Positions 20,582 through 38,554 of a DNA stretch of 64,000 bases are shown here, in pieces (within the stretch, counting starts at the first letter, position 1; each line of letters opens with the position of its first letter). Made by a program: the position numbers and the translations under genes. Source of the DNA: Actinomycetota bacterium (lineage in GTDB: Bacteria > Actinomycetota > Geothermincolia > Fen-727 > JAQUKT01); the NCBI GenBank assembly GCA_028718945.1, contig JAQUKT010000001.1, forward strand, positions 11,997-75,996. The letters run 5' to 3'. The notes beneath the pieces are model-generated. The model saw nothing but the letters and a program-made list of their open reading frames with translations, was not told the DNA's origin and did no database searches.

Positions 20582-23350
20582 CTAAAAACCTGGTGGCTTA
20601 GCCGTCGAAGAGTACTTCGTCCACAGATTCTCATCCATAGTAACCCACCCAATAAAAGTGTGAGCTTTTGCCGTCGTCGTAAGGCGCAAATTCTTCATTA
20701 GGGTTGGGTCATCCTCGAGCGTCGAGCACAGTACAATCGGGTCAAGTTTGGCAAGCAATTCGGGCAGAAGCTGCTGGTTCGAGTTTATTGCATCGGCAAT
20801 TACCCGCGGATCGAGATTCGCAAGCAACCGACCTGTCATCTCGGGATGCTTCCCCATCGCCTCAGCAAGAACAGCCGGGTCGAGGTAACCCGGACTTATA
20901 AGCGTTTTAATCAAATCCATGGTATTAGGTTGGTTAATAAGATCAGCCGTAATGCTCGGGTCACTGGTTCCCATGAACTCGGCAATGAAACTCCCGTTCG
21001 CGTTTATCGCATTTGCTACCACCTGAAGTGCGCTTGGATTAGCATCGAGCGCGGCAATTATCCTCCCCACAAAATCATTCGACCCCTGCTCGAGATGAAG
21101 TTCATGCTGCACATCCACCATTGCCTGTACATCGGTGCTTGCTATCATCTCACGAATAAACCCGGGATTTTCGTTTACAGCAGATGCAATCCTTTCGGGG
21201 TCGAGCCCTGAAATCAAATTCGAAAGGAATGCTTCGTTGTTGTTTACTGCCTCACCTATGACCTCGGCATCGAGGTTGTTCATCAAAGCAGTTGTGAAAG
21301 CGGTTGCTTCCTCACTTGCCCTGGTAAGAACAGCCGGGTCAAGGTATTTGATGACATTCTTCAAGAAAACCTTGTTCGCGTTTACCGCGGACGCTATCGC
21401 TGCCGGCGATAAGTATGGAAGCATCTTTGAGGTTGAATCGGGATTCGCGTTCATTGCGTTTGCAATTACCTGAGCGTTGAGATATTTCAAAAGATTTTTT
21501 ATGAACGTCGCGTTCGAGTTTATTATTGCCGCTGTAGTTGATGGGTCTCCTTTGCTCATTACTTTCGAAATGAATGGTCCATTCGAGTTTATGACACTTG
21601 CAAGCATGGCTGGATTCAGTTTCCCAACAAGAGCGGTTATGAAGGGTCCATTCTTGTTTACTATTTTCGCGGTAACTTGGGGGTCGCTCTTCGACATCAT
21701 CTTCTTCAAGAACTCGCCTGAATCGTTTACCACGCCAGCAATAACACTCGAGTCGAGATTGTCGAGAAGTTCCTTTGTCGAGTTTGGATTCGCACTCATT
21801 GCATCCGCAATCACCTTCGGATTCAGTTTTGGCAATAGGGAATTTATAAACGCGACATTCCGGTTGAGAATTGTTGCCGTTGCGGCAGGGTCCCCGGCAC
21901 TCATAACTTTTATGAGGAATTCCTGATTGTTGACTATCGATGCGACAAGGTCTGGCGATATTCCGCCAACAACCGCATAAACGAAATCCTCCTGTTGTTT
22001 GTCCATTGGCTTGGTCAGCTCAGCCGGGTCGAGATTCCTCACAAGTTCAGTCATGAACGCACCGTTTGCATTGAGCGCGCCGGCAATCGCAGCCGGGTTG
22101 AGCGCGCCAATTACCTTGAGCATGAATCCCTGGTTGTTTATGATATCCGCCATCACTGTCGGGTCTGCCGAGTTCACTACCTGAACGATAGTACTCACAT
22201 TTCCATTTATTATCCCTGCTATCACATTAACATTGAGATGAGAAACAAGCCTTGCTATCCAGTCTCCATTCGCATTCACCGCGTTCGCGATAGGAGTCGG
22301 ATCTGAGCTTCGCATCATTGCCATCAGGAAAGCTTCGTTCGAATTCACTACATTCGCTATCACGGTTGGATCAAGCCTTCCCAATAGAGCGCCAATGAAT
22401 GGACCATTGTTATTGACAATATATGCTGTTATCTTGGGGTCTGAATACTGCATCATCGCCTGAAGGAATGGACCGTTTTCATTCACAACATCAGCAACAA
22501 CAACAGGCGATATGTAGGAGATTAGATCAGTAATGAATTTGCCGTTCTCGTTTACTATATAGGCAATCACCTGTGGGTCGAGATATTTCATCAGGTCATT
22601 GCTCATTTCGGGATTTGCTGTTATTATCTCTGCAAGCATGGCTGGGTCGAGATTCCTGATAATATCTGCTATGAGTTTTCCATTTTTGTTTATCGGATAA
22701 GCCAAAGCTTTCGGCTCAAGCAGAGAAATAAGCTTCGTGCTCATCTCTGGATTCGCACCCATCGCATCAGCAATAACCTTTGCAGGAAGTGCGGAAATCA
22801 GTTCAGAAATAAATTCGGGGTTTTCATTCAGTGCCTTCGCCGTTGCCTTCGGATCTCCGCTTGTCATAATTCCCTCGAGGAGATATCTGTGATTCGCGAT
22901 TTCTCCGATCATTTTTCCCAAAGGAGTTTTATCTACCGGAACAATCGCGAATCCAGCAAATAGAATGGTGAAAAGAAGTCCTATTATCACCACAACATTC
23001 ACAAGTGTCTGAAGGTGTGGACCAAGTAGAAAGCCCCCTCCTGGTTGCGGCGCCCGTGCCTTTGCCCTGACCTGAGTAATTTCCGGCCTCGGAGCAACTT
23101 TGGGTGCAATCTGAACTTTTGCTTCGGCGCCAAGAGCGAGTACTTTCTGCCTGTACTCCTGCCTTGCGCGTGCCTGCATCGAAGGATGTTCGACAGAACT
23201 TATAGTTAGCGCTGTCTTGAGGATGAACTCTACCTCCGCTCTATCCTTTTGCTTAGCAAGGAGACTCTCGAGCTTTGTTCTATCCTTCGAAACTGCATCA
23301 AGAAGCTTATCAATCAGGTTGGCTGAACTATTGTCATCCAAGCTAACCAC
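20582..23350 (-). CDS. 23-residue-repeat protein, paralog 3, with ~130-aa cytoplasmic N-terminal domain and single TM (anti-sigma-factor-like architecture)
   Basis: 922 aa. Helical charged N-terminal domain, then TM (LVNVVVIIGLLFTILFAGFAIV), then PLGKMIGEI and the repeat array. Immediately downstream of the ECF sigma gene. Confidence 0.65.
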   Translation of the reverse strand: MVSLDDNSSANLIDKLLDAVSKDRTKLESLLAKQKDRAEVEFILKTALTISSVEHPSMQARARQEYRQKVLALGAEAKVQIAPKVAPRPEITQVRAKARAPQPGGGFLLGPHLQTLVNVVVIIGLLFTILFAGFAIVPVDKTPLGKMIGEIANHRYLLEGIMTSGDPKATAKALNENPEFISELISALPAKVIADAMGANPEMSTKLISLLEPKALAYPINKNGKLIADIIRNLDPAMLAEIITANPEMSNDLMKYLDPQVIAYIVNENGKFITDLISYISPVVVADVVNENGPFLQAMMQYSDPKITAYIVNNNGPFIGALLGRLDPTVIANVVNSNEAFLMAMMRSSDPTPIANAVNANGDWIARLVSHLNVNVIAGIINGNVSTIVQVVNSADPTVMADIINNQGFMLKVIGALNPAAIAGALNANGAFMTELVRNLDPAELTKPMDKQQEDFVYAVVGGISPDLVASIVNNQEFLIKVMSAGDPAATATILNRNVAFINSLLPKLNPKVIADAMSANPNSTKELLDNLDSSVIAGVVNDSGEFLKKMMSKSDPQVTAKIVNKNGPFITALVGKLNPAMLASVINSNGPFISKVMSKGDPSTTAAIINSNATFIKNLLKYLNAQVIANAMNANPDSTSKMLPYLSPAAIASAVNANKVFLKNVIKYLDPAVLTRASEEATAFTTALMNNLDAEVIGEAVNNNEAFLSNLISGLDPERIASAVNENPGFIREMIASTDVQAMVDVQHELHLEQGSNDFVGRIIAALDANPSALQVVANAINANGSFIAEFMGTSDPSITADLINQPNTMDLIKTLISPGYLDPAVLAEAMGKHPEMTGRLLANLDPRVIADAINSNQQLLPELLAKLDPIVLCSTLEDDPTLMKNLRLTTTAKAHTFIGWVTMDENLWTKYSSTAKPPGF

Positions 23351-23485
23351 TTCCTACCTCTCCACAAGCAAACCCAAAAAATTATCGCTCGAATAATAAT
23401 AACGATTTTGACTCTCAAAGGATACTGGTTTTCCTCAAAAAAGCGTGAAATTCACATGGGTAAATGGAACCGGCACGAAGTGAAA

Positions 23486-24052
23486 TCAGAGGAAACTTGA
23501 AGGACTCGACTGGGAAAGTATTCTGTTTAGGGCAAAAAGACCTCTTTTCTGAGTGGATTTGACTGCACCAACTGATACACCCATAATCTCTGCAATCTGA
23601 GCGTTAGAAAGATTATCGATAAACTTGAGAACTATTACTTCGCGCTGGTTGTGAGTGAGTCTTTGAAGGGCAAGATAGAGTCTTTCACTATCGAGGTCTG
23701 CCATTGCAGTTTCCATTGGATTGCCTTTCGCAGCAGGAGTAGGCGACTGCTCGTCAATAGGAACATTCTCCCTTCTTGACTCACTTCTGAAAAAATCAAC
23801 AGCGAGATTGTGCGCAATTCTGAAAAGCCATGACGAAAATGATACATCACGAGTCTCGTAGTATTGAATATTCTCGAACGCTTTCAAGAAGGTCTGTCCT
23901 GTAAGGTCCTGTGCGTCATTCTGATTTCCAACCTTGTAATAAATATATCTGAATATCTGATCAACATATTCATCGTAAAGCTCCCCAAATGCCTCCGGGT
24001 CGCGTTCTTTTGCTCTCTTCACAAGGTTTTGAATAGCGCTCTCTCTGGACAT
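23486..24052 (-). CDS. ECF-type RNA polymerase sigma-70 family factor
   Basis: 188 aa. Region 2 (DLTGQTFLKAFENI...WLFRIAHNLAVDFFR) and region 4 HTH (NAQIAEIMGVSVGAVKSTQKRG). Confidence 0.85.
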   Translation of the reverse strand: MSRESAIQNLVKRAKERDPEAFGELYDEYVDQIFRYIYYKVGNQNDAQDLTGQTFLKAFENIQYYETRDVSFSSWLFRIAHNLAVDFFRSESRRENVPIDEQSPTPAAKGNPMETAMADLDSERLYLALQRLTHNQREVIVLKFIDNLSNAQIAEIMGVSVGAVKSTQKRGLFALNRILSQSSPSSFL

Positions 24053-24317
24053 ACATGCTCCGTTCTACGAAAAAACTTATGCCCCTCCTGTCAGTCTATT
24101 TAACTTAAGTAAAAAAGCGTTAACCGAAGTATACTATACTTAAAAAAATTTTCAAATTTTTTTGTCAACACAAATGAATGGCACTCCCAATAAGCTGCAA
24201 ATAGTTCGCAACGGATGATACTCAAAAGTGTCAAATTTGAATATCACCCGACAAGAGCAGCTTTTACCTTAGAAAGGAGCTTGTTCCTTCCTCACGAAAC
24301 GAAGCCCATTGCTTTCC

Positions 24318-27300
24318 TCACCAGAGAGGAAACCCTATCACGTCATGCCCACCAGTCCAGCCATAGAAATCAAAATACATCGGTCGTTCGACGATTATTC
24401 CTTTATTATCTTCCCCGAGCGCAACCACTTTGGCGCCAGCATCCTTGCCCCAGCCAATAGAACCGTTCACATCAACCGTCACTCTTGCGTGACCGGGCAC
24501 AGCTAATTTCTGCTCCTTGTTCTCCCCACCGGTCAGCATGTAGGTTATTCTTACCTCGGCTTCCTTGTCACCCGGGTTCTGGATACTCAACCATTCCTGG
24601 AATCCTTGCATAGTTGTTCCCTCTGCAAAGTACCACTGAGAAGCAGTTGAATTTGCACCTATTACATCATGCCCCCCGGTTATGCCAACATAATCGAAGT
24701 AAATCGGGCGCTCGGCAATTATCGGCTGACTCGAGGTAATGCGCGCGGAAACATCATGCTCCCTTTCAACTGCACCATGAACATCTACTGTAACCCTGGA
24801 AGTCCCCAATACACTCAAGCTCTGAGCCTTGGTTTCACCAGTTTCAAGCATGTATGTAATCTTCACATCAGCCACATAGGTTCCAGGATTCAACAGGCAA
24901 ATCCATTCATCGAATCCCGAACGAGTGGTGCCCTCGGCAAAATACCAGGTCTCTGAAGGCGAAGTCGCGCCCATGCAGTCGTGTCCGCCAGTCCACATAT
25001 TTTTGTAGTTGAAATACATCGGTCGCTCGGCAACAATGCCTACATCCGAGGTAACCTTCGCGGCGCAATCAACTCCCGGTCCAAGGAACTGCTTGGCACT
25101 GATTGTTCTCCTCGACTTCGCAGGAACTTTAACGCCCTGAGCTCTTGTTCCTCCTCCGGTAAGCATATACTTGATTTCAACCGCCGCTTCATGTTCAGAA
25201 GGATTTTGGAGGCATATCCATTCCTCAAACTCGTCTCTGGTATTACCCTCAGCGAAATACCATTCTTTCGATGCACCAACAGCCCCCATGACATCGTGTC
25301 CGCCTGTCCATACTCCGTTATAGTTGAAATACATGGGTCGCTCGGCAACTATTTGTTTGTCAGAATCCACCCTTGCAGAAACATCCTTCTCTTTGCCAAC
25401 CACATCCTCCACGCGCACGGTCAGCCTGCTTTTAGCCGAGACCTCGAGCTCATGAGTCTGGTTGGGACCCTCCGAGAGCATGTAAGTGATGGTCACGCTT
25501 GCAGCAGTATCATTGGGGTTCATCAAGCAAATAAATTCCTGGAACCCCTGCCTCGTGGTCCCTTCTGCGAAGTAGAAAGTCTTGGGAAGAGTAACCGAAA
25601 ATTGGATTCCGTTCGATGTTCCAACTGGAGTTGTAATTGTCACATTACCCGTTTTTGCCCCCATAGGAACTTTTGCCCTTACGCTTGAATCAGACCATGA
25701 TTCCACATCAATGGCATCAACATTAGCGAACCTAACCTTGCTCGTGCCCTGCTCATCACCAAAGTTCTTCCCGCTCACAGTAACAGAGATTCCAGCAGGA
25801 CCGTTCAAAGGTGAAACCGATGAAATGTATGGACCTGCGGTGAACTGAACAGAATTGCTTTGCCCACTCGGCGTTGTAACTATTACTCCCCCGCTTGTCA
25901 CAGCCGCTGGAACTCTTGTCTCTATCTTCGTTTTCGACCAGGATTTTGCCTTTCCGGCATCCACACCCGCAAACGTTACCTTGCTCGAGCCCTGTGTCTC
26001 GCCGAAAGTGAATCCATTTATTGTGACAATCGTGGTTCCCGGTATCCCGCTCGATGGAGAAATAGATGTTATCTTTGGCAGAACCTTGAAGGATTTTTGG
26101 TTGCTTTCAACATCGTTGACAGTAACAATGACCGAGCCACTGGTTGCTTTTGCCGGAACACTTACAGTTATCTTAGTTGATGTCCAGCCTTCCACCTGAG
26201 CAGGTTCCCCATTGAATTTCACCGTGTTCGAACCCTTTGAAGCGCCAAACCCGGTTCCATTGATTGTTACGGAATCGCCAACTCTTCCTTCGGATGAACT
26301 CAACCAGTCGATAACCGGTGTAACGTTGAAGGGAATCAAATTGCTTTCTCCGTAAAGAGTCTGAACCTTCAATTGACCGCTTGTTGCATTCTCGGGAACA
26401 TTCACCACAATCCTGTTGTAGCCCCAGGTTGATGCGGTTCCAGAATCCACATTGTTGAAATATACCTTCCCATTTGCGCCCTGCACTTCCCCGAATCCAG
26501 AGCCATCTATGGTGACTGAATCCCCCACTTTTGCAGTTGTCGTTGAAGTTCCCGAAATCCAGGGGGTTATGCTCAAAACCGGGTCTTGCGTGCTTGCACT
26601 CGAGTTTCTCAAAACCCGAACAGGTCCAGTCCATGGCTGGAAAACCGCGGGGTCATCAGGAATCTTGAACTTGATATTTGTGTTATTCCATGAGACCATA
26701 AAGGCTTCCGGAACCATCTCGAGGCTCACATTTCCATCTTCATCCATCTTCTGCATTTTCACGCAGTTGTTAGGGTCATAAGGAAGTGGACTTGTCCCGA
26801 AATTCCCGCCATTTATCTCGATTTCATCACCGGTCTTGCCCGAGTCGGGTGAGAGTTTCTCAATCTTCGGGATGACATTGACATTCAATGGTGGTGCGCT
26901 CTCCTTTCCACCCGCTGTAACCGTCACTGGAACACCAATTCCTGGCTCTATATCAGGGGGAAGAGTGAACTTGATTTCCGTACGCGTCCAGGACGTGAAG
27001 CTCCCATCTGGAATCTGCCCGCCATTTACCTTTACATTGTTCGTATCGGTGCTTCTATTCCCTGAACCAGGGTCATTACCAAAACCGGTTCCGGTAATTG
27101 TAACCGCTGTTCCGTATGACATTTGCGTTGGGCTCACGTTAGTAATATTCGGAAGAACTGTAAAGGTAACACCATTTGAACTCCCCCCGTCATGAACAAC
27201 ATGAACATTTCCAGTAATGGCATTGTTCGGAACAACCGCTTTTATCTCGGTGCCGGTCCATGTATTAATTGATGCCTCCGTTTCACCACCAAAATATACA

Positions 27301-30300
27301 TGACCGTTCACGCTTGGCTGGCCCGCGCCGAAACTCGAGCCATTTATGGTTACCTCGGTGCCCGTTACCCCATTGCCTGGAACAAGTGGAGGAGTTATTA
27401 CCGGAGCGGCAAGGCTCTGGCTACAAACCTGAATTCTCCCAAAACTGCCGCATGAATATGCCTTTATCCTGTCAGTATCCCAGATGCTCGAGATGCCCAT
27501 AAGAGACCTGTTGACGCCCGTAGCGCTTTCAATTTCACCCCATGTTCCGCCTCCATTTGAAGTATAAAGCGCGCAGGCGGGCTCAGTTACAGCCGGGCTG
27601 GCTCCAACAATGAGGCCATTTCTTGTATCAGAATGCCCCGGGGCGCCAAAGGAAACTCCAAAAAGTTCATCGCTTACAGGACCTTCCTGAAAAACCCAGT
27701 TGTCTCCACCATCATCCGAGTACCAGATTGAGCCTCCTTCTCCAACTGCCCAGACATCGCTTTTACCGCCCATTGAGACATCATTGATTTTCACAGAGCC
27801 AGCGGGGGGATTTGCAGGAGTCTGCCAGGTTGCTCCTCCATCATCCGTCCACCTCACGCTTTCCGTGCTTCCCGCGGTTCCCCCAACCGCAACTCCACAT
27901 TCTTCGTCGAAGAAATCAACCGCTCTTAAATTCGCGGTTGGATTGCTCTCCTGTTCTGTCCATGTATCCCCTGAATCCGCGGAAATCCATATATGCCCGT
28001 TATCACCAACAGCCCATGCGTGAGTTGAATCTATGAAATCAACAGAGCTCAAATTATTTGAAACAGGCGGACTTGTTGCAGGTGACCATGTTTGACCGCC
28101 ATTGGAAGTTCTTCTGACAGTTGCGTTATCTCCAACCGCAATGCCTCGATAGACACCACCATCAAGATACATTGACACATCATTGAGATTCTTGTCTGTA
28201 ACGCTATCAGAGGGCATCCAGGTTGCCCCCGCGTCGGTCGTATAAAGAACAACTCCCTTTTCCCCGCAGGCAATTCCATTGTTTGCATCCGCAAATGACA
28301 TTCCATTGAGGTTATTCGCGGGGCCCTGAAGGAAGTTCCAGTTTGCGCCCTTATTCGTGCTACCAATTATCGTTCCATAATCCCCGGAAGAAAAGGCCCT
28401 TGAGAATGCTGATTCAAACCAGGAAGCGCGAAGATCGTTCCTGTTGAAACTCGACCCTGCGTCCCAGTTTGCTCCACCATCGCTCGTATAGTAAATATTA
28501 CCATCCGAGCCAACCGTTACTCCCTCGAAATTTGGTATAGCTCCATTGTAATCAATCGAGATATCCCTCAGGTTAACCGTTCCGGGAACAGCTCCCTGAG
28601 GATTCCAGGTTACACCGTCCCAGCATAGAACGGTTCCGGAATCTCCAGCCGCCCAGACATTATTCGAGTCATAGGCATCAATGCCATAAAGAGGAGGAAT
28701 CCCAGCAGCAAGCTCCTGATTGAAGGTTATGCCGCCATTTGTTGTGTGACAGATGATTCCTCTGGAAGAATCCTCGAAGCCAACCTCGAAGCCAACTGCG
28801 TAGAAATTGGAGGAATCAACAAAATCGGAAGCGAAAAGAGCGGAGGGAGATGGTATCTCGGAAATTGTATTCCACGTATTACCATCTGTGCTCCTTATTA
28901 TTGTCCTTACTTCTCCCACAGCCCAGCACTGATAGTTCACTCCATCATGAAGGGCAGAAACCGCGTTCAAACGATTGTTTGTCTGTGAGGTTTGCTCCGC
29001 CCAGTTATCGCCGTTATTGGTGCCCCCATATACCTTCCCACCATCCCCAACAACCCACGCGTAGTTATTCGTGGAATCTCCAAACTCAACTCCTCTCAAG
29101 TTATTGGCAGTTGAAGGAGGAGCCGCAGGGTCAGCCCAGTTCTGACCTCCGTTCGTGGAACGAATTACCCGTCCGTTTTCACCGCAGGCAATTCCTTGAG
29201 TTAATGAAACAATGTCAACACCAAAAAGGTCATCCGTATGCCCGCTCGAGGAGGCATTCCAGTTTGCTCCATTATTGTTTGTGAACCTTACGACGCCATT
29301 TGAACCAACTGTAGAGCCCGTATCATTTGAACCATTGTTACAAAGTGAAATTCCATAGAGGTCTTCAGTTGTCCCCGAAGTTTGCGTTTGAAACGCTACG
29401 TTATAGTGAAGTATGAATCCGGAGGAACCACAGAACCAGCCCTCGATAGCAGTAGGAAATGATATGTCATAAATTGTGTTCGTTGCTTGAAGGACGCTCA
29501 ATGTGTTCCATGTCGAGCCATCGGAAGTACTTATGACCAGCCGCCCGTCACCAACCGCGAATCCCGCAGGTCCTGAATACATCGAGATTCCCCTCAATTC
29601 AAGAGATGTCCCGCTCGTTTGTGGACCAACAGTTCCATTAAGATAGCGATAGAGCATCCCAGCCTGACCGCAAATCCATCCATTGCTCGAGTCGGTGAAA
29701 TCAAGAGCGAGGAAATCGTTTGTCGTTTTTTGAACCCCGGAATAAAGCGCCCATGAAGAACCCCCACTGTTTGTCCAAGCCATGAGCCTGCTCTCACCAG
29801 CAATGACTCCAGCACTCGCGTCCGTGAAATCAATCCCGTACAGGTTATTCGATGTCGGACTCGTTATTACTGACCATGTGCCATCCCTTCCTACGATGGT
29901 TCCATCTTGACCGCAGGCAAAAGCATTGTTCGAGGATACTGCGGAGACCGATTCGAGATTTTTCGTGGTGCTGGAATTCTCTTTTGTGAAAAGACCATTT
30001 CTCGCAAGATAAACAATTCCAGAATTTCCAACCACCCATCCGTATTTAGAAGCAGTATCAAAATCAATTCCGTTCAAGTTGTCCGTTCCCTCCAAGGATG
30101 AGATTTTCGTCCATCCTGGACCCGTTGAATCGTACTTCCACATCGTCCTGTTCATACCGGAAGCAAAAGCAAGTGAAGCACTTGAGAACGATATCCCCGT
30201 AAGGTCCCTTGTTCCCGAATCCATACTGACTGGAGAGCCAAATGATCCACCCGTGATGGGAACCCTGTAGCCCTCGGTTCCGCTTCCGCCAACCGCAAAG

Positions 30301-32774
30301 CCGTTACCGGACACGAGGTCTAAGTCGTAAAGATTTGGGGTTGGCGGTCCAACCTGAGCGGGAGCCTGCCATACACCAGCGAGAAGCTGAACATAATAAC
30401 CATTTGCACCAACCGCGTATCCATTCGCGGCATCGGAAAGATAAACGGAATTCAAATCGGGGGTTGGGGCTCCAACCTGAGCGGGAGCCTGCCATGCACC
30501 AGCGAGAAGCTGAACATAATAACCATTTGCACCAACCGCGTATCCATTCGTGGCATCGGAAAGATAAACGGAATTCAAATCGGGGGTTGGGGCTCCAACC
30601 TGAGCGGGAGCCTGCCATCCACTAAGGTATTGAATTGTAATTCCATTTTCACCGACTACATATCCATTGTTAGAATCCACGAAATAGACTGAATTTAATT
30701 TTTCAGAAGTCCACGCCGTGGTGTTGAACTCAATGGAATAATTAGTGCCATCATAATGAATAATCGTTCCTCCACTTCCTACCCAGTAAGCCGTGCCATC
30801 GGGGAGAGAAAAAACATCCTCGAGGTCAACGAGGCTCCAGTGGGGAGTAGCAGAAGAACCATCGAGGGTCTGCCATACAGTTCCTCCCTCTCCAACAGCC
30901 CAGCCAACATCCTTGTTGAGAAAATCTACGGAGAGAAGATTTGTGGCACCAGGGGTTGAAGCGGGATTTCTATCCGTCCACGTGGCAGTTGCGGGAATGT
31001 GAGTCGCCTGCCTTATATGACCACCATCTCCAACCCAAGTAATGTAATAAGTTCCAGGACTTCCGCTATCCTCGACGATTGAGACATCCCTGTTTGAGAA
31101 AGCGCCATCAGCAACAGGATTCCACACCGTCGCGCCGCCATCATTCGTCCAGACCGCCGCCCCATTCTGCCCGACAGCGAATACATAATTCGTTCCATCT
31201 CCCCCAACCTCAACCGCACGCAGGTTCTCTGGAGTTCCAGAATCCTGAGCTTTCCAGGTATTCCCATCTCTCTTTATGATTGCTCCGCCGCCACCAACAT
31301 AGTACTCGATGTCTGCATCGGGTTTTGCCACATCGTAAATGTCAAAGGGACCCCAGGTAGTGCCATTCCTCGTCTGCCAGATACCACCATCCCAAGCCGT
31401 AGCAAACCAGATTCCCGTTGTTTTAGAGAAAGAGACATCAGTGAAATTTGTGGTTCCAACTCCACTCGCATTTGTCCAGTTTGCCCCTCCGTTCGATGTG
31501 TATGCCAGAGTTCCGGAAAGTCCGGCAACATAGCCGCTCGCAGCGCTCTCGAACTCAACTCCAAGCAAATCCTGAGCAGGAGGTGGACCAACAGGGGTAG
31601 ACCATGCAGCAGGAGTGCCACCGGGTGGCGCGTCAGTTGTGTAGAAAAGAGCGCCTCCATCGCCACAAGCCCATACGAGATAATTTCCGCTTCCGCCTGA
31701 ATCATTGTAAACAAAAACATCATTGAGATTTGCAGCAAGTGCGGGACCCGCATTCCAATTAGAGCCACCATCTGTGGTATAAAGATTCACATTGTTTTCG
31801 CCAACAGCCCAGCCATAGTTCGCATTTATGAAATGAATGCCATTCAAATTACTTGTTGTGGTGCTATTCTGAACGGTCCATGAAGAGCCATCATAGAATA
31901 GGATTAGCCCGCGCTGTCCGGCAATCCAGGTGTGTGTTGAATCAAGAGAAAAAACGGCATTTGCCCCGAAATCAGAACTCCACGTGGTTCCCCCATCAAC
32001 AGTGTGAAGAATCGTTCCATCTTTTCCTCCAACCCAGGCTTCATCTTGAGATATCGCAAAAACGGAATTGAGTCTTTTCGTTGTCCCGCTTGCCTGAAGG
32101 CTCCAGGTTGTGCCCCCATCATTCGTCGCGATAATCACGCCGCCGTCCCCGACTGCCCATCCATTGTTAGAGTCAGCAAATGAGACATCGAGTAGGGCCA
32201 TGCTCGACCAGGATGCTCCTCCATCCACAGTCTTCATCACGATTGGCGACCAGGTCGAGGGCTTTTCTAAATCAAGCATATTCGCGCCAACCACTATGGC
32301 TTCAGTGTCGCTCGGCGCGAATACATCAAAGAAAACATTGGTGGTTTCTCCCATATAAACTATGTTCCATGTCCCAACACCAGTTGAATCCGTACACTTT
32401 GATATCAATCCCGAATCTCCAACTGCATAGCCAAGATTGGGACTGCGAAAGTAAACGCCACGAATTGTCAATAGATGAAGGAAAGGATCGTCGCCGACCC
32501 TTTGCCCCGTCCAGGTTGTACCACCATCAGTTGTATGCCAGCAATCGTAGAAGGTGGTTCCATCCAGTGATTGCTGCGGTTGTCCAACCGCCCAGCCCTC
32601 AACTCCGCCGGGCAAGAAGAAAATGTCTTCAAAATGGCTTTCAATAAGATCCTCCCTTTGAGGAGACCATGTGCCAGCAGCGGAAGCCGGAGAGAAAGAA
32701 AGCAAAGCCAGCAAAGAAGCACACAAGACCAAAGACAACAATGAAGTCCTTCTAAACCTTCTAAATACCTTCAA
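24318..32774 (-). CDS. Giant secreted protein (2818 aa): signal peptide, multiple Ycf48/BNR-type beta-propeller regions, 7 IPT/TIG domains, 4 C-terminal ~105-aa repeats of unknown family
   Basis: N-terminal signal peptide ending SPASAAG. Dozens of T/VDGGxTW Asp-box-like motifs. IPT-like P-x-I-x-x-S-P-x-x-G-x-x-G-T-x-V-T-I-x-G-x-x-F-G units. Four repeats starting WYFAEGTTRxGFxEWICLxNP and ending GGHDVxGA. Confidence 0.8.
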   Translation of the reverse strand: MKVFRRFRRTSLLSLVLCASLLALLSFSPASAAGTWSPQREDLIESHFEDIFFLPGGVEGWAVGQPQQSLDGTTFYDCWHTTDGGTTWTGQRVGDDPFLHLLTIRGVYFRSPNLGYAVGDSGLISKCTDSTGVGTWNIVYMGETTNVFFDVFAPSDTEAIVVGANMLDLEKPSTWSPIVMKTVDGGASWSSMALLDVSFADSNNGWAVGDGGVIIATNDGGTTWSLQASGTTKRLNSVFAISQDEAWVGGKDGTILHTVDGGTTWSSDFGANAVFSLDSTHTWIAGQRGLILFYDGSSWTVQNSTTTSNLNGIHFINANYGWAVGENNVNLYTTDGGSNWNAGPALAANLNDVFVYNDSGGSGNYLVWACGDGGALFYTTDAPPGGTPAAWSTPVGPPPAQDLLGVEFESAASGYVAGLSGTLAYTSNGGANWTNASGVGTTNFTDVSFSKTTGIWFATAWDGGIWQTRNGTTWGPFDIYDVAKPDADIEYYVGGGGAIIKRDGNTWKAQDSGTPENLRAVEVGGDGTNYVFAVGQNGAAVWTNDGGATVWNPVADGAFSNRDVSIVEDSGSPGTYYITWVGDGGHIRQATHIPATATWTDRNPASTPGATNLLSVDFLNKDVGWAVGEGGTVWQTLDGSSATPHWSLVDLEDVFSLPDGTAYWVGSGGTIIHYDGTNYSIEFNTTAWTSEKLNSVYFVDSNNGYVVGENGITIQYLSGWQAPAQVGAPTPDLNSVYLSDATNGYAVGANGYYVQLLAGAWQAPAQVGAPTPDLNSVYLSDAANGYAVGANGYYVQLLAGVWQAPAQVGPPTPNLYDLDLVSGNGFAVGGSGTEGYRVPITGGSFGSPVSMDSGTRDLTGISFSSASLAFASGMNRTMWKYDSTGPGWTKISSLEGTDNLNGIDFDTASKYGWVVGNSGIVYLARNGLFTKENSSTTKNLESVSAVSSNNAFACGQDGTIVGRDGTWSVITSPTSNNLYGIDFTDASAGVIAGESRLMAWTNSGGSSWALYSGVQKTTNDFLALDFTDSSNGWICGQAGMLYRYLNGTVGPQTSGTSLELRGISMYSGPAGFAVGDGRLVISTSDGSTWNTLSVLQATNTIYDISFPTAIEGWFCGSSGFILHYNVAFQTQTSGTTEDLYGISLCNNGSNDTGSTVGSNGVVRFTNNNGANWNASSSGHTDDLFGVDIVSLTQGIACGENGRVIRSTNGGQNWADPAAPPSTANNLRGVEFGDSTNNYAWVVGDGGKVYGGTNNGDNWAEQTSQTNNRLNAVSALHDGVNYQCWAVGEVRTIIRSTDGNTWNTISEIPSPSALFASDFVDSSNFYAVGFEVGFEDSSRGIICHTTNGGITFNQELAAGIPPLYGIDAYDSNNVWAAGDSGTVLCWDGVTWNPQGAVPGTVNLRDISIDYNGAIPNFEGVTVGSDGNIYYTSDGGANWDAGSSFNRNDLRASWFESAFSRAFSSGDYGTIIGSTNKGANWNFLQGPANNLNGMSFADANNGIACGEKGVVLYTTDAGATWMPSDSVTDKNLNDVSMYLDGGVYRGIAVGDNATVRRTSNGGQTWSPATSPPVSNNLSSVDFIDSTHAWAVGDNGHIWISADSGDTWTEQESNPTANLRAVDFFDEECGVAVGGTAGSTESVRWTDDGGATWQTPANPPAGSVKINDVSMGGKSDVWAVGEGGSIWYSDDGGDNWVFQEGPVSDELFGVSFGAPGHSDTRNGLIVGASPAVTEPACALYTSNGGGTWGEIESATGVNRSLMGISSIWDTDRIKAYSCGSFGRIQVCSQSLAAPVITPPLVPGNGVTGTEVTINGSSFGAGQPSVNGHVYFGGETEASINTWTGTEIKAVVPNNAITGNVHVVHDGGSSNGVTFTVLPNITNVSPTQMSYGTAVTITGTGFGNDPGSGNRSTDTNNVKVNGGQIPDGSFTSWTRTEIKFTLPPDIEPGIGVPVTVTAGGKESAPPLNVNVIPKIEKLSPDSGKTGDEIEINGGNFGTSPLPYDPNNCVKMQKMDEDGNVSLEMVPEAFMVSWNNTNIKFKIPDDPAVFQPWTGPVRVLRNSSASTQDPVLSITPWISGTSTTTAKVGDSVTIDGSGFGEVQGANGKVYFNNVDSGTASTWGYNRIVVNVPENATSGQLKVQTLYGESNLIPFNVTPVIDWLSSSEGRVGDSVTINGTGFGASKGSNTVKFNGEPAQVEGWTSTKITVSVPAKATSGSVIVTVNDVESNQKSFKVLPKITSISPSSGIPGTTIVTINGFTFGETQGSSKVTFAGVDAGKAKSWSKTKIETRVPAAVTSGGVIVTTPSGQSNSVQFTAGPYISSVSPLNGPAGISVTVSGKNFGDEQGTSKVRFANVDAIDVESWSDSSVRAKVPMGAKTGNVTITTPVGTSNGIQFSVTLPKTFYFAEGTTRQGFQEFICLMNPNDTAASVTITYMLSEGPNQTHELEVSAKSRLTVRVEDVVGKEKDVSARVDSDKQIVAERPMYFNYNGVWTGGHDVMGAVGASKEWYFAEGNTRDEFEEWICLQNPSEHEAAVEIKYMLTGGGTRAQGVKVPAKSRRTISAKQFLGPGVDCAAKVTSDVGIVAERPMYFNYKNMWTGGHDCMGATSPSETWYFAEGTTRSGFDEWICLLNPGTYVADVKITYMLETGETKAQSLSVLGTSRVTVDVHGAVEREHDVSARITSSQPIIAERPIYFDYVGITGGHDVIGANSTASQWYFAEGTTMQGFQEWLSIQNPGDKEAEVRITYMLTGGENKEQKLAVPGHARVTVDVNGSIGWGKDAGAKVVALGEDNKGIIVERPMYFDFYGWTGGHDVIGFPLW
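30346..30627. repeat. Near-identical 123-bp tandem repeat (2 full + 1 partial copy) inside the giant gene
   Basis: Copies start at 30346, 30469 and 30592 with only a handful of mismatches. Each encodes the 41-aa unit WQAPAQVGAPTPDLNSVYLSDATNGYAVGANGYYVQLLAGA in frame. Confidence 0.85.
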
Positions 32775-33316
32775 TTCCTTACCTCCCTTGACCTAAGCTG
32801 CCCCATGAAAACCCTTTAATAAAACCGCACCAGAAAGATTTTTTGAACCTTGAATTGTTTGTTACGAGGCACCCCAAAAATTGAAAATCAGCTTGCATAT
32901 CTCATCTTCACACTTCTTAAGAAATCCCCGAACCCTGCCAGTACCTAATTATATAACAATTATCTAATAAATATTACGAAAAACAATCCCTCACGGATAC
33001 CAAGCCCTGCTCCTTCGATTCCCAATCCCAAAAATGCCTGAAGGTAAAATTCAACTTTTGTTTATTTCGGTTCTCGTCAACAATACCTTTAATTTCGCAT
33101 ACGATTCAACCTGTCTCACTTCTAAGTTTAGTAATCAATCCAAATTGAATGACTTAGATTCAAAGACTTACGACAATTCAGTTTGACCAAAACAAAACAT
33201 CGTGTTATATTTGCTTGTATTGCTGATTCGCTCAGAAGATTTTTTCGAATCAGCGTGATTGTCACCCTGTATTGTTTCTAAACCTGTTTCGATATGAGAG
33301 GGTCTAAACAAAAACT

Positions 33317-34096
33317 GTGATTGAGTGCGAAAACAATTATAGAATCTCAAACATCAGGGGTAAGGTTATTTCATTCACGGGCGGGAAAGGTGGTGTTGGA
33401 ACCACTACAATTCTCGGGGAAATCGCCTACTTGTTTTTCAAACTTGGAACAGAAACAGCATGCGTTGATTTCGATATCCACAACGGAAGTCTTCACATGA
33501 AATTCGACATAACTCTCACAGACAGGATACACACGGTTTCTGACCTCATCCCGCTTGTTGGGGAACTCACGCCAAGAACTATTAGCAATGCGGTCTCAAG
33601 CACAACGAGGGGAGTAAGAATCCTTCCAAGGCCGGAATCGATCGAACAGGCATCTTTGTTATCATCATCGCACATTGAAGCGATGATAAAGTCATTTTCA
33701 TTAACATATCCTCTCGTGTTGATCGATACCCCCGCAGGAGCAAACCCGATAGCCGTTTCAACCTGCTCCGTATCGGATATAACCGTTCTAATAACGACTC
33801 CTGAGATACCATCAATCATAGGGACCAAAAGGCTTCTTGATACTTTTTCCTCTTCAAAAACGCCCTTTCCTCTATTAGTCGTAAACCGCTCTTTTGTCGG
33901 GAAAGACGCCCTCACTCTTGGTGAAATAGAGTCATTCCTGGGCATGCACACATCGGTCATCATTGCCGAAGACACTTTCAATACAAGGCGCCTGAGCGAG
34001 GAAGGGAGATTCCTTTCAGACGAAAAGACACCCGTTTCTCGCGGGATAAGAGCCCTCCTCAAAGAACTTTCATCCCTGCTCCAAATTCATTCATGA
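33317..34096 (+). CDS. tadZ: Tad pilus assembly ATPase-like protein TadZ/CpaE (MinD/ParA superfamily, ATPase domain only)
   Basis: Deviant Walker A GGKGGVGTTT. 259 aa with no receiver-like N-domain. Confidence 0.7.
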   Translation: MIECENNYRISNIRGKVISFTGGKGGVGTTTILGEIAYLFFKLGTETACVDFDIHNGSLHMKFDITLTDRIHTVSDLIPLVGELTPRTISNAVSSTTRGVRILPRPESIEQASLLSSSHIEAMIKSFSLTYPLVLIDTPAGANPIAVSTCSVSDITVLITTPEIPSIIGTKRLLDTFSSSKTPFPLLVVNRSFVGKDALTLGEIESFLGMHTSVIIAEDTFNTRRLSEEGRFLSDEKTPVSRGIRALLKELSSLLQIHS

Positions 34097-34186
34097 GTTA
34101 CGAAAATAATAGGTGACAAAACACCAATTGACACTCGCTTCAGTGGCTGCTAAAATTTTGCTTGTATTGCTTCTAAGGGAAGTTAA

Positions 34187-35401
34187 ATGGAAGAAACCGC
34201 AAAAGCAAAGTTCGCTCATTCTTTTAGCGCATCAACAAGAGAAGAAGTCCGCAAGAGAGTGCTCCTCGACTTATCAGCATCTGGCAAGAATTTTCATGAA
34301 AAAGAAGAAATCGAAAAAAGGGTAGAAACTGTCCTACTTTCAATGGGGCTTCTGCTTCCTTCAAGCCAGGTAGAAACGCTTTGTTGCGAACTTCATGATG
34401 AGCTCTTTGGAATGGGACCACTTGAGCCTTTCTTCAAAGACCCGGAAATCTCCGAAATCATGGTCAACGGCGCATCAAAAACATTCATTGAAAAAAGAGG
34501 AGTAATCGAACAGGCGAATATCAGATTTGAAAATGAGGCGAAAATCCTCGAACTCGTTCGGCGGGTGCTCGCTCCGCTGAACCTCAGGCTCGACGAGACC
34601 TCACCCATGGTGGACGCAAGGCTTCCGGATGGCTCCCGCCTGAACGCGATAATCCCCCCGCTCTGCCTGAATGGACCAACAGTAACCATCAGACGTTTCA
34701 GGGTTCAGTCATTCACCAAAAAAGAACTTGTCGAACTCGGAACTTTCCCATCCGAAATTGCATCTTTCCTGGAGAAAAGTGTCATAGAAAAAGCGAACAT
34801 TCTGATATCCGGCGGCACCTCGAGCGGAAAAACAACCCTCCTAAACGTTCTTTCATCCCTTATACCGAAACAGGAAAGACTAATAACAATCGAGGATGCC
34901 GCTGAGCTAAGGATTGAACATCCTCATGTGATATCCCTTGAAAGCAGACCGCCAAGCATCGAGGGAAAGGGTGAGATTACTGTTCGAGACCTTGTTAGAA
35001 ATGCCCTGCGAATGAGACCCGATAGGATAATAGTAGGAGAAGTAAGGGGTCCCGAAGCCTTGGATATGCTCCAGGCAATGAATACTGGTCACCCCGGTTC
35101 CCTTTCAACTGCTCATGCAAACTCACCGATTGACCTCGTAAGCAGACTCGAAACCATGGTTCTAACGTCGGGGGTCAACCTCAACATCGATGCGGTAAGA
35201 AGGCAAATTGCCTCCGCGCTCGACCTAATAATCCACATGGAGCGCCTGAGAGATGGAAGGCGCGTTGTTTCCGAAATAGTGCGGGTTTCTCAAGGAAGTG
35301 ATTCATCAGTGAGATTCGATCCGATTTTCCTTGACGCCAAAGGCAGGAATAGGAATGCAGAAGACGATTCCTCCACTCTCAGGAAGGAAAAAATCTTATG
35401 A
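34187..35401 (+). CDS. tadA: Tad secretion ATPase TadA/CpaF (VirB11 family)
   Basis: Walker [15 protein letters not shown], Asp box, Walker B, His box ([13 protein letters not shown]). 404 aa. Confidence 0.85.
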
Positions 35402-35476
35402 AAGAGCATAAGTTTGACTTCAATTGAAACGCAAGAATAGTTAGCAACTTTTTCGACTCTAACGAGAGGAGAGACT

Positions 35477-36409: not shown

Positions 36410-36412
36410 CAT

Positions 36413-37312: not shown

Positions 37313-37448
37313 TTCCTCTTTAAGAATGTCACATAGACAACATTGATAATAATTAACGGATAATAATCTTGACTAATCACTACCCTAATGCTATGCTTGT
37401 ATTGCTTGTTGTAATGTTCATTTGAAGTCAGGAAAGGAGGAGAATTCA

Positions 37449-37628: not shown

Positions 37629-37630
37629 AG

Positions 37631-38143: not shown

Positions 38144-38150
38144 CTAACTG

Positions 38151-38549: not shown

Positions 38550-38554
38550 ATGCA

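What the first reader, a model, noticed from the sequence alone, without database searches (positions are those of the whole stretch)
24318..32774. 2818-aa secreted multi-propeller/IPT protein with four copies of an unassigned C-terminal ~105-aa domain, encoded immediately upstream of the sigma gene
The protein combines several Ycf48/BNR-like beta-propeller regions (dozens of DGGxTW motifs), seven IPT/TIG domains, and four tandem ~105-aa repeats that I cannot place in a known family. Each of those repeats begins W-Y-F-A-E-G-T-T-R-x-G-F-x-E-W-I-C-L-x-N-P, has ITYML in the middle and ends GGHD-V-x-G-A. The gene is the first in the 18.6-kb unidirectional block and ends 265 nt before the ECF sigma gene. 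It may be the surface component whose status is monitored by the sigma/anti-sigma-like system, or an adhesin or polysaccharide-binding protein.
Basis: partly seen in the sequence, partly recalled or inferred. Interest (0 to 1): 0.6.

Follow-up and report, generated by a model that had tools for sequence, protein, structure and literature searches.

The report
Giant surface protein with ASRAH anchor
This is a real 2818-residue secreted protein of an uncultured actinobacterium, and its four "unassigned" C-terminal repeats belong to a domain described in 2009 (ASRAH, Pfam DUF5719/ASRT) that most likely fastens the protein to the cell wall, so the finding is largely explained.

Summary
The ORF (24318..32774, minus strand, 2818 aa) and its anatomy are confirmed. 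It has a signal peptide, about 40 Ycf48/BNR-type blades (roughly six 7-bladed propellers), seven IPT/TIG domains and four tandem 104-105-aa repeats.

The tetrad is a mobile module found in more than 6000 protein clusters. Its partners include SpoIID, amidase, deacetylase, M23, proteases and propellers, which fits a non-covalent wall anchor. There is no LPXTG motif and no C-terminal membrane helix.

The order Tad pilus operon, giant protein, ECF sigma, three membrane helical-repeat proteins recurs in all six orthologous loci examined. The sigma is BldN-like. The motif GTATC-N16/17-CGTW precedes both the anti-sigma-like gene (6/6 loci) and the giant gene (4/6), so the gene is probably a target of this sigma.

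Verdict: a new member of a known kind, of modest interest.

The parts
24318..32774 (-). Gene for the 2818-aa secreted protein, TTG start, stop codon at 24318-24320
   Evidence: It matches NCBI protein P0121 (2818 aa, 100% over the 2393 residues queried), 'MAG: DUF5719 family protein [Actinomycetota bacterium]'.
32782..32786 (-). Shine-Dalgarno GGAGG, 7 nt before the TTG start
   Evidence: Read directly from the sequence.
32679..32774 (-). Signal peptide, aa 1-32 (KVFRRFRR, a hydrophobic core, then ASA|AG)
   Evidence: It is the only hydrophobic 19-mer stretch in the protein. The cleavage site was judged by eye; no predictor was run.
27510..32600 (-). Ycf48/BNR-type beta-propeller array, aa 59-1755: about 40 blades, roughly six 7-bladed propellers
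   Evidence: PSII_BNR E 2.5e-65 with 9 stretches, plus Sortilin-Vps10. A blade HMM gives 40 units. The AF2 model of aa 33-1230 is all-beta with pLDDT 86.6. Foldseek finds only generic multi-propeller proteins.
30337..30622 (-). Near-identical 123-nt tandem duplication (2.3 copies, 96% matches), equal to 41-aa blade units in the third propeller
   Evidence: The repeated peptide QAPAQVGAPTPDLNSVYLSDA.NGYAVGANGYYVQLLAG.W is visible.
25587..27407 (-). Seven IPT/TIG domains, aa about 1790-2396 (stalk)
   Evidence: TIG E 5.2e-48 with 7 stretches. Sequence shown.
25263..25577 (-). ASRAH repeat 1, aa 2400-2504
   Evidence: On its own it scores DUF5719 36.7 bits and ASRT 24.1 bits.
24948..25262 (-). 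ASRAH repeat 2, aa 2505-2609
24636..24947 (-). ASRAH repeat 3, aa 2610-2713
24321..24635 (-). ASRAH repeat 4, aa 2714-2818; the protein ends ...GGHDVIGFPLW with no sorting signal
32974..33000 (-). Candidate ECF-type promoter of the giant gene, GTATC-N17-CGTAA, about 200 nt upstream of the start
   Evidence: It is one of only two hits to GTATCN{15,18}CGTWA in the 64-kb window, where 0.20 are expected. Related motifs lie upstream of the orthologs in L001, L002 and L005.
24211..24255 (-). 15-bp hairpin 60-100 nt after the stop codon (dG -19.3 kcal/mol), a possible terminator
   Evidence: A strong hairpin occupies the same place in all five orthologous loci. None has a clear T-tail.
24095..24155 (-). 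The sigma gene's own promoter-like region: TTGAAA-16-TATACT, followed by (G)TTAAC-like repeats spaced about 11 nt apart
   Evidence: The block TATAGTATACT-N3-GTTAAC-N5-TTAACT-N3-GATAACT is conserved in the 6 loci.
23486..24052 (-). ECF sigma factor (188 aa), BldN-like
   Evidence: Pfam Sigma70_r2/r4_2. Best NCBIfam hit is the BldN family TIGR02952 at 176 bits, below the 206 cut-off. Best PDB hit is 6DXO_A, named in the PDB table only as an ECF-subfamily sigma factor and taken to be sigma-BldN from the RsbN-BldN structure paper PMC6101532, at E 1.2e-29.
23400..23425 (-). ECF-type promoter GTATC-N16-CGTTA in front of the anti-sigma-like gene
   Evidence: GTATC-N16-CGTT is invariant in 6/6 loci, 46-76 nt before the start codon.
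20582..23350 (-). 922-aa membrane protein: a 105-aa cytoplasmic N-terminus, one TM (aa 107-141) and a long ectodomain of about 22-aa helical repeats. Candidate anti-sigma factor.
   Evidence: The N-terminal extension is present only in sigma-linked loci (5/5) and absent in sigma-less loci (0/3). Its topology equals that of RsbN (PMC6101532).
15507..20527 (-). Two paralogs (820 and 838 aa) with an N-terminal TM and the same helical repeats. The gaps of 54 and 41 nt suggest one operon with the 922-aa gene.
33183..39382 (+). Divergent Tad/Flp pilus operon: conserved TTGACC-17-TATATT promoter, ParA/CpaE-like, CpaF, TadB, TadC, A24 peptidase, TadE, TadG-NlpC/P60
   Evidence: The same neighbour is present in all six orthologous loci.

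Best explanation
The gene encodes a giant (about 300 kDa) cell-surface protein of an uncultured Actinomycetota bacterium. After Sec export and signal-peptide removal, the four C-terminal ASRAH domains fold into one compact pseudo-tetramer. This tetramer binds a glycan of the cell wall (peptidoglycan or a wall-associated polymer) and holds the protein on the cell non-covalently, much as SLH triads do in other Gram-positives. Seven IPT/TIG domains form a stalk that projects about six Ycf48/BNR-type beta-propellers outward as the ligand-binding or adhesive part. The gene is its own transcription unit and is probably transcribed from an ECF-type promoter recognised by the adjacent BldN-like sigma factor. 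That sigma is held in check by the downstream membrane protein, which has an RsbN-like topology.

Shown: domain identities, the fold, the tetrad organisation, the promiscuity of the module, conserved synteny, and the shared promoter motif.

Inferred: wall binding, the stalk/head geometry, the adhesive role, and sigma dependence.
For: Domain identity:
- DUF5719 97 bits and ASRT 44.8 bits.
- TM1070 is found by sequence at E 0.0014.
- AF2 tetrad model has pLDDT 96.8 and pTM 0.94.
- The superfamily hallmarks from PMC2739507 are present: Trp at strand 1 in 3 of 4 repeats, the invariant Asn in 4 of 4, and a tetrad arrangement.

Anchor role:
- The module occurs in 6483 cluster representatives.
- 77 of 87 sampled proteins have exactly 4 repeats, and the tetrad is C-terminal in 62.
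- 29 of the 120 best hits carry peptidoglycan-acting domains: SpoIID 6, Amidase_3 7, Polysacc_deac_1 10, M23 6.
- Other cargos are unrelated secreted domains: S8, beta-lactamase, PHB esterase, NHL, FG-GAP, Big_13, ice-binding, metallophosphatase.
- There is no LPXTG and no C-terminal TM.

Regulation:
- The sigma is adjacent in 6/6 orthologous loci.
- GTATC-N16-CGTT is invariant before the anti-sigma-like gene. The same motif lies before the giant gene in the window and in L001, L002 and L005. The strict pattern occurs only at these two places in the 64-kb window, against 0.2 expected.
- The sigma's best structural relative is 6DXO chain A, the sigma-BldN of the RsbN-BldN complex (PMC6101532). 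Its regulon in Streptomyces is surface-sheath proteins, and its anti-sigma gene has its own BldN-dependent promoter (PMC6101532, PMC4255298).
Against: - No ASRAH tetrad has been shown experimentally to bind cell wall. The role rests on a 2009 prediction and on domain fusions.
- The ligand-contacting His of TM1070 is not conserved here (Q/E/D/Q), although the Cys is conserved in repeats 1-3.
- The promoter motif was not found upstream of the orthologs in L003 and L004, and the PWM matches in the others are individually weak (P about 0.05).
- The window's copy has a 17-nt spacer and CGTA rather than 16 nt and CGTT.
- The sigma scores below NCBIfam's BldN cut-off (176 vs 206).
- The propellers give no specific functional match, so 'adhesin' is a guess from architecture.
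- Conserved synteny among related MAGs could partly reflect shared ancestry.
Confidence: 0.6

Rival explanations
1. The ASRAH tetrad is a substrate-targeting carbohydrate-binding module. The protein is a released or loosely attached binder, or a non-catalytic scaffold, for an environmental polysaccharide, and it is not anchored to its own wall.
For: - ASRAH domains are predicted sugar binders (PMC2739507).
- BNR/Ycf48-type propellers resemble GH74 xyloglucanases (5JWZ).
- Some tetrad proteins carry pectate-lyase-like or PHB-esterase domains.
Against: - The same tetrad is fused to enzymes whose only substrate is the cell's own peptidoglycan (SpoIID, Amidase_3, M23).
- It is also fused to non-carbohydrate enzymes such as S8 protease, beta-lactamase-fold proteins and metallophosphatase.
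- Many proteins consist of a signal peptide plus the tetrad alone (19 of 87).
- No glycoside-hydrolase catalytic domain is present in the giant protein.
Confidence: 0.15
2. One reading: the giant protein is the extracytoplasmic component whose state is sensed by the anti-sigma-like 922-aa protein. Loss or unfolding of the giant protein, or ligand binding by it, would release the sigma.
For: - Adjacency to the sigma is conserved in 6/6 loci.
- The anti-sigma-like protein has a very large ectodomain.
- In sigma-less relatives, an ASRAH-tetrad protein (an S8 subtilase) still sits directly upstream of the three helical-repeat paralogs. This hints at a physical or functional link between tetrad proteins and these membrane proteins.
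Against: - There is no direct evidence of an interaction.
- The cargo differs completely between lineages (propellers vs protease).
- The giant gene has its own hairpin and its own promoter-like motif, which fits 'target gene' at least as well as 'sensed component'.
- The sigma-less configuration comes from one lineage only. L007 and L008 share aroA synteny, so they are not independent.
Confidence: 0.15
3. The protein is a structural coat or S-layer-like component, and the propellers tile the surface rather than bind external ligands.
For: - Its size, Gly/Ser/Thr-rich composition and single copy in the window.
- A weak sub-threshold hit to S-layer protein Slr4 (E 0.0012).
- The N-terminal region is relatively well conserved among orthologs (44-65%).
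- The pTM of 0.74 for four propellers suggests a fixed inter-propeller arrangement.
- BldN-type sigmas drive surface-sheath proteins in Streptomyces (PMC6101532).
Against: - No S-layer family reaches its threshold.
- There is no evidence of self-assembly.
- A 2818-aa protein with a seven-TIG stalk is more typical of adhesins than of lattice proteins.
Confidence: 0.1

Closest known systems
ASRAH superfamily, secreted 'tetrad' family (de Souza, Iyer & Aravind 2009, PMC2739507)
   Same: The repeats are about 105-aa eight-stranded beta-sandwiches related to ASRT/TM1070. They occur four in tandem in a secreted protein. The strand-1 Trp and strand-2 Asn hallmarks are present. Amidase_3-fused tetrads are 41-46% identical to this one.
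   Different: The paper describes this family as 'always fused to an amidase' and as mainly found in Chloroflexi. Here the cargo is six propellers plus seven TIG domains in an Actinomycetota MAG, and the module has dozens of other cargos.
Pfam DUF5719 (PF18986), the actinobacterial lipoprotein with an ASRAH dyad
   Same: This is the best Pfam match (97 bits). Each repeat aligns to profile positions of about 53-156. NCBI names the protein 'DUF5719 family protein'.
   Different: Only the ASRAH core of the 319-position profile is matched. There is a tetrad instead of a dyad. There is no lipobox Cys after the signal peptide. The family-specific N- and C-terminal extensions and the WhiB/glycosyltransferase neighbourhood are absent.
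TM1070 (PDB 1NC7) and Anabaena sensory rhodopsin transducer (PDB 2II7-2IIA; Pfam ASRT PF07100)
   Different: Those proteins are small, single-domain and cytoplasmic. The ligand-contact His is replaced here. This family has its own invariant motifs (YFAEG, ERPMYF, GGHD). This protein is extracellular.
SLH-domain triads and CWB2 triads of Gram-positive surface proteins (functional analogy, from general knowledge)
   Same: Each is a fixed small number of tandem domains forming one pseudo-symmetric wall-binding unit. Each is placed at either end of many unrelated secreted cargos, including wall hydrolases and giant surface proteins.
   Different: The fold is unrelated. Binding to a wall polymer is experimentally established for SLH and CWB2 but not for ASRAH.
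Sigma-BldN / RsbN of Streptomyces venezuelae (PDB 6DXO; PMC6101532, PMC4255298)
   Same: The adjacent sigma's best PDB and NCBIfam matches are BldN. The downstream gene encodes a protein with about 105 cytoplasmic residues, one TM and a large ectodomain, like RsbN (117 aa, TM 118-139). That gene has its own conserved ECF-type promoter, as rsbN does. The sigma gene itself has a different, housekeeping-like promoter with operator-like repeats. The BldN regulon consists of surface proteins.
   Different: The score is below NCBIfam's BldN cut-off. The 922-aa protein has no detectable sequence similarity to RsbN. Its ectodomain is a roughly 780-aa helical-repeat array with two extra paralogs. The candidate target is a giant propeller protein, not chaplins or rodlins.
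Ycf48/BNR (Asp-box) seven-bladed propellers and multi-propeller surface proteins
   Same: PSII_BNR and Sortilin-Vps10 profile hits, SxDxGxTW-like motifs, and about 42-aa blades.
   Different: There are six propellers in one chain. There is no photosystem context, no glycosidase active site could be identified, and no specific structural neighbour was found.

Membership tests
ASRAH superfamily (PMC2739507) | Eight-stranded beta-sandwich with the TM1070/ASRT topology | tested here: met
ASRAH superfamily (PMC2739507) | A conserved Trp after a polar residue at the start of strand 1, and a nearly invariant Asn at the end of strand 2 | tested here: met
   E/T/Q-W-YFAEG is present in repeats 2-4, with Phe in repeat 1. 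The Asn of the '..CL.NP' motif is present in 4 of 4 repeats and invariant in three of the four repeats across 37 homologs. It aligns to N32 of TM1070.
ASRAH superfamily (PMC2739507) | Significant sequence-profile match to ASRT/DUF1362 or its relatives | tested here: met
   ASRT PF07100 scores 44.8 bits against a cut-off of 25, and DUF5719 scores 97 bits against 26.2. phmmer to 1NC7 gives E 0.0014.
ASRAH secreted tetrad family ('family 2', PMC2739507) | Four tandem ASRAH domains in a secreted protein | tested here: met
   There are four repeats and an N-terminal signal peptide. 77 of 87 sampled homologs also have exactly four.
ASRAH secreted tetrad family ('family 2', PMC2739507) | Fusion to an N-acetylmuramoyl-L-alanine amidase domain ('always', as originally defined) | tested here: not met
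   There is no amidase domain in this protein. Amidase_3-fused tetrads exist among close homologs at 41-46% identity, so the original definition appears too narrow.
DUF5719 actinobacterial lipoprotein ('family 3', PMC2739507; Pfam PF18986) | An ASRAH dyad flanked by family-specific N- and C-terminal extensions | tested here: not met
   Only profile positions of about 52-239 of 319 are matched, and each repeat maps to about 53-156. The arrangement is a tetrad, not a dyad.
DUF5719 actinobacterial lipoprotein ('family 3', PMC2739507; Pfam PF18986) | A lipobox Cys after the signal peptide, and a WhiB / glycosyltransferase / inactive zincin neighbourhood | tested here: not met
   The signal peptide ends in ASA|AG with no lipobox. 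The neighbours are an ECF sigma, helical-repeat membrane proteins and Tad genes.
Sortase-anchored (LPXTG) surface proteins | C-terminal LPXTG, followed by a hydrophobic segment and a basic tail | tested here: not met
   There is no LPXTG-like motif near the C-terminus and no hydrophobic segment apart from the signal peptide.
Non-covalent cell-wall-binding modules (functional class) | Demonstrated binding to peptidoglycan or a secondary wall polymer | not testable with these tools
   Only contextual evidence is available: fusions to SpoIID, Amidase_3, PgdA-type deacetylase and M23 in 29 of 120 homologs, and use with many unrelated cargos.
BldN family ECF sigma (NCBIfam TIGR02952), for the neighbouring sigma | Score above the curated equivalog cut-off | tested here: not met
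   The score is 176.3 bits against a cut-off of 206.45, although this is the best-scoring family. The best PDB hit is 6DXO_A, taken to be BldN from PMC6101532, at E 1.2e-29.
ECF sigma regulon membership of the giant gene | A promoter with the same -35/-10 motif as the sigma-dependent anti-sigma promoter | tested here: inconclusive
   GTATC-N16-CGTT occurs in 6/6 anti-sigma-like promoters. GTATC-N17-CGTAA lies upstream of the giant gene in the window, and the strict pattern has only these 2 hits in the window against 0.2 expected. Related sites occur in L001, L002 and L005 but not in L003 or L004. No transcription data are available.

The most novel reading that the evidence does not exclude
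The ASRAH tetrad is the general, cargo-independent cell-wall display module of a deep-branching group of Actinomycetota (Geothermincolia-like MAGs and relatives), playing the part that SLH or CWB2 triads play elsewhere. This giant propeller protein would be the main output of a BldN/RsbN-like surface-remodelling switch, in which the anti-sigma factor arose by fusing a sigma-binding N-terminus onto one of three ancient helical-repeat envelope proteins. Those proteins are themselves linked to ASRAH-tetrad proteins (shown here) and to Tad pili (seen in two lineages).
Probability: 0.3. Interest if true: 0.55.

Novelty: new member of a known kind. Interest (0 to 1): 0.3.

Why it matters
For the scan, this finding can be closed. 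The 'unassigned' domain has a name, solved structures of relatives, a Pfam model and a published functional prediction, and the protein is already in NCBI under that name.

Three things remain of some value:
1. The ASRAH tetrad is far more widespread and promiscuous than the 2009 description said ('always fused to an amidase'). It occurs in more than 6000 clusters and with many cargos. It is therefore a good but still untested candidate for a major wall-anchoring module in uncultured Actinomycetota.
2. There is a concrete, testable regulatory hypothesis. A BldN-like ECF sigma with a sharply conserved GTATC-N16-CGTT promoter would drive both its RsbN-like anti-sigma operon and the giant surface protein.
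3. The anti-sigma factor appears to be a fusion onto a helical-repeat envelope protein family, based on presence or absence across lineages.

Tried and rejected
- An exact-sequence look-up of the sigma protein found nothing on record.
- The genome-contig scan with the 922-aa protein returned only 2 loci.
- The third homolog search, with an L007 paralog, gave only 11 hits because of the low-complexity repeats.
- The afdb50 fold library was not available, so no full-tetrad structural neighbours could be listed.
- A first candidate motif upstream of the giant gene (ATCAAGAA-N14-TGCCGATA) is present in L002, L004 and L005. It is absent from the window and from the sigma promoters, so it was dropped as the shared element.
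- A PWM trained on the six anti-sigma promoters missed the window's site, because that site has CGTA and a 17-nt spacer. The site was found by pattern search instead.
- The N-terminus of the 922-aa protein shows no sequence similarity to RsbN or to any PDB chain.
- No LPXTG, SLH, LysM or other anchoring domain was found.
- The fold search of the four-propeller model gave only generic multi-propeller hits such as LRP2, DDB1, GH74 and BT4663.
- No other ASRAH-containing ORF exists in the window.
- No paper mentions DUF5719, and only the 2009 paper uses 'ASRAH' in this sense.
Full report
**Observation.** The window holds an uninterrupted ORF at 24318..32774 on the minus strand. It is 2818 codons long and starts at TTG. 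GGAGG lies 7 nt upstream of the start. NCBI's protein for this locus has the same length and is 100% identical over the 2393 residues queried (P0121, 'MAG: DUF5719 family protein [Actinomycetota bacterium]', on a 98.7-kb contig). The N-terminus (KVFRRFRR, a hydrophobic core, then ASA|AG) is the only hydrophobic stretch in the protein. There is no LPXTG motif and no C-terminal membrane helix.

Pfam reports PSII_BNR (E 2.5e-65, 9 stretches), Sortilin-Vps10 and TIG (E 5e-48, 7 stretches). A blade profile built from the protein itself finds 40 blade units between aa 59 and 1755, which corresponds to about six seven-bladed propellers. The strict DGGxTW-type motif occurs 13 times and a loose form 22 times, not 'dozens'. 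An AF2 model of aa 33-1230 is all-beta with pLDDT 86.6 and pTM 0.74. It resembles only generic multi-propeller proteins.

The four C-terminal repeats lie at aa 2400-2504, 2505-2609, 2610-2713 and 2714-2818. They are 48-54% identical to each other and are unique to this gene within the window.

**What the C-terminal repeats are.** They are not unassigned. The last 440 residues score 97 bits against Pfam DUF5719 (cut-off 26.2) and 44.8 bits against ASRT (cut-off 25). A plain sequence search of the PDB finds TM1070 (1NC7) at E 0.0014, aligning the E, C and N of its strand-2 signature.

This is the ASRAH superfamily defined by de Souza, Iyer and Aravind in 2009 (PMC2739507). That paper describes the following:
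- solo cytoplasmic ASRT-like proteins that form tetramers;
- a secreted family with four tandem domains fused to N-acetylmuramoyl-L-alanine amidase in Chloroflexi;
- an actinobacterial lipoprotein family with two domains, which is now Pfam DUF5719.

The paper predicts sugar or peptidoglycan binding. Its hallmarks are the Trp at the start of strand 1 and the invariant Asn at the end of strand 2. Both are present here, except that repeat 1 has Phe instead of Trp.

The protein does not fit the DUF5719 lipoprotein family proper. Only the ASRAH core of that profile is matched, the arrangement is a tetrad rather than a dyad, and there is no lipobox and no WhiB/glycosyltransferase neighbourhood. It fits the 'tetrad' family except for the amidase.

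**How the module is used elsewhere.** A word-indexed search found 2342 homologous proteins. An exhaustive HMMER search found 6483 cluster representatives, 2812 of them below 1e-30.

Of the 120 best hits, 29 carry domains that act on peptidoglycan: SpoIID 6, Amidase_3 7, Polysacc_deac_1 10 and Peptidase_M23 6. Another 19 carry TIG domains (domain names checked). The tetrad can sit N-terminal (amidase and deacetylase fusions) or C-terminal (SpoIID and beta-lactamase-fold fusions).

Fifty larger representatives add these partners: Big_13, NHL, other propellers, S8 protease, PGA_cap, ice-binding-like, metallophosphatase and pectate-lyase-like domains. Of 87 sampled proteins, 77 have exactly four repeats, 62 have them at the C-terminus, and 19 are little more than a signal peptide plus the tetrad.

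Source names point to Actinomycetota MAGs, including Geothermincolia and 'Candidatus Solincola'. A fixed-number, position-independent, cargo-independent module that also rides on the cell's own wall hydrolases is the signature of a wall-targeting or anchoring unit. That role is inferred, not shown.

**Neighbourhood.** Twelve proteins share the full architecture, at 2562-2896 aa and 35-60% identity. In all six loci examined the gene order is the same:
- a divergent Tad pilus operon (ParA/CpaE-like, CpaF, TadB, TadC, Flp, A24 peptidase, TadE, TadG-NlpC/P60);
- the giant gene;
- a 188-192-aa ECF sigma;
- a protein of about 920 aa, followed wherever the contig extends (three loci, as in the window) by two further paralogs of about 840-860 aa.

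The window has the same order. Identity to the window is 74-77% for the sigma, 63-70% for CpaF, 55-73% for the tetrad and 34-59% for the propellers.

The three large downstream proteins are paralogs. Each has one membrane helix and a long array of about 22-aa helical repeats (LDPxVIAxAVNxNGxF). The first paralog has an extra 105-aa cytoplasmic N-terminus. That extension is present in every sigma-linked locus (5/5). It is absent from all three paralogs in the sigma-less loci L007, L008 and L010. This is the pattern expected if the extension is the sigma-binding domain.

The sigma's best NCBIfam family is BldN (176 bits, below the 206 cut-off). Its best PDB relative is chain A of 6DXO, named there only as an ECF-subfamily sigma factor, which I take to be the sigma-BldN of the RsbN-BldN complex described in PMC6101532 (E 1.2e-29). 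RsbN has a 117-aa cytoplasmic part, one TM helix and an ectodomain, and BldN drives surface-sheath proteins (PMC6101532). The 922-aa protein has the same topology but no detectable sequence similarity to RsbN.

**Transcription signals.** A strong hairpin follows the giant gene's stop codon in every locus (window 24211-24255, dG -19.3).

The sigma gene has its own sigma-70-like element (TTGAAA-16-TATACT). This sits inside a block conserved in all six loci: TATAGTATACT, followed by (G)TTAAC-like repeats about 11 nt apart.

The intergenic region between the sigma and the 922-aa gene contains GTATC-N16-CGTT(T/A)A in 6/6 loci, 46-76 nt before the start codon. This parallels rsbN, which has its own BldN-dependent promoter (PMC4255298).

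The strict pattern GTATCN{15,18}CGTWA occurs only twice in the whole window, against 0.20 expected; 1 of 100 shuffles reached 2 matches. One hit is that promoter. The other is at 32974-33000, on the sense strand, about 200 nt upstream of the giant gene. A relaxed pattern adds two hits that lie inside ORFs on the opposite strand and are presumably chance.

Related sites precede the orthologs in L001, L002 and L005 but not in L003 or L004. None precedes the sigma gene itself. I read this as moderate evidence that the giant gene is a target of the adjacent sigma.

**A wider link.** In a more distant lineage (L007 and L008, where the paralogs are about 30% identical to those in the window), the three helical-repeat genes have no sigma. 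They are still immediately preceded by a secreted ASRAH-tetrad protein, there an S8 subtilase with a Big_7 domain. In L009 the repeat proteins sit beside a Tad operon and a PQQ-type propeller protein, with no ASRAH gene. These are few and partly non-independent observations. They suggest that the helical-repeat proteins, tetrad-bearing surface proteins and Tad pili form a recurrent envelope gene set, onto which the sigma/anti-sigma pair was added in the lineage of the window.

**Most likely mechanism (confidence about 0.6).**
1. The protein is exported by Sec.
2. The C-terminal pseudo-tetramer attaches non-covalently to a wall glycan.
3. The seven TIG domains act as a stalk.
4. The six propellers act as the exposed binding surface.
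5. Expression comes from an ECF-type promoter controlled by the BldN-like sigma and its RsbN-like membrane anti-sigma.

**Novelty.** The domain families, the tetrad organisation and the predicted sugar or wall binding are all published, and the protein is already annotated under that name. The non-amidase cargo, the breadth of the module's use and the conserved sigma-linked neighbourhood extend the published picture rather than overturn it. I rate this as a new member of a known kind, with interest 0.3.

Noticed in passing
window 15507-23350 (-): Three paralogous proteins of 922, 820 and 838 aa have one TM helix and a roughly 780-aa array of about 22-aa helical repeats (LDPxVIAxAVNxNGxF). No Pfam or NCBIfam family matches them. 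Only the first has a 105-aa cytoplasmic N-terminus, and only in loci that also have the ECF sigma.
   Followed up: partly
window 24095-24138 (-), and the equivalent sites in L001-L005: A block upstream of the sigma gene is conserved at the DNA level in all six loci: TATAGTATACT-N3-GTTAAC-N5-TTAACT-N3-GATAACT. It has three TTAAC-like half-sites about 11 nt apart, just downstream of the -10 element, and looks like an operator for an unidentified regulator.
   Followed up: partly
window 30337-30622: A 123-nt tandem repeat (2.3 copies, 96% identical) lies inside the third propeller and duplicates a 41-aa blade unit. It could be a recent expansion, a variable region or an assembly collapse point.
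   Followed up: no
window 33183-33211 (+) and 33317-39382 (+): The divergent Tad/Flp pilus operon has a TTGACC-17-TATATT promoter with an extended TG, conserved in all six loci. Its last gene fuses a TadE/G-like pseudopilin N-terminus to an NlpC/P60 peptidoglycan hydrolase domain.
   Followed up: partly
L007 839-3664 and L008 3570-6464: In sigma-less relatives, an S8 subtilase-Big_7-ASRAH tetrad protein lies between aroA and the three helical-repeat paralogs. This is the same position that the giant protein occupies in the window's lineage.
   Followed up: partly
L002 16435-19671: An IS605/IS607-type pair (OrfB/TnpB-like plus a serine resolvase) and a Mutator-family transposase are inserted between the sigma gene and the anti-sigma-like gene. 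They separate the two without disrupting the GTATC-N16-CGTT promoter.
   Followed up: no
L003 2498-4684: A 728-aa protein is inserted within the Tad operon of one ortholog locus. It combines ECF sigma regions 2 and 4, a zf-HC2 anti-sigma motif, Big_7 and Tricorn_N-like domains.
   Followed up: no
window 14150-15238 (-): The last gene of the block encodes a 362-aa protein with an N-terminal B-box/zinc-ribbon-like Cys cluster, a long charged linker and 3-4 C-terminal TM helices. No homolog was found in the other loci at E<1e-5.
   Followed up: no
window 5048-13122 (-): Directly downstream lies an unrelated molybdenum cluster: ModA-like PBP, permease, a ModC-like ATPase with a TOBE domain, two MoeA genes (one fused to a PBP-like domain) and MoaA. 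The 'unidirectional block' is therefore not one functional unit.
   Followed up: partly
L009 1-12235: In a more distant lineage, helical-repeat proteins of the same family sit next to a Tad operon and a PQQ-type beta-propeller protein, with no ASRAH gene. This hints that the link to Tad pili is older than the link to ASRAH proteins.
   Followed up: no
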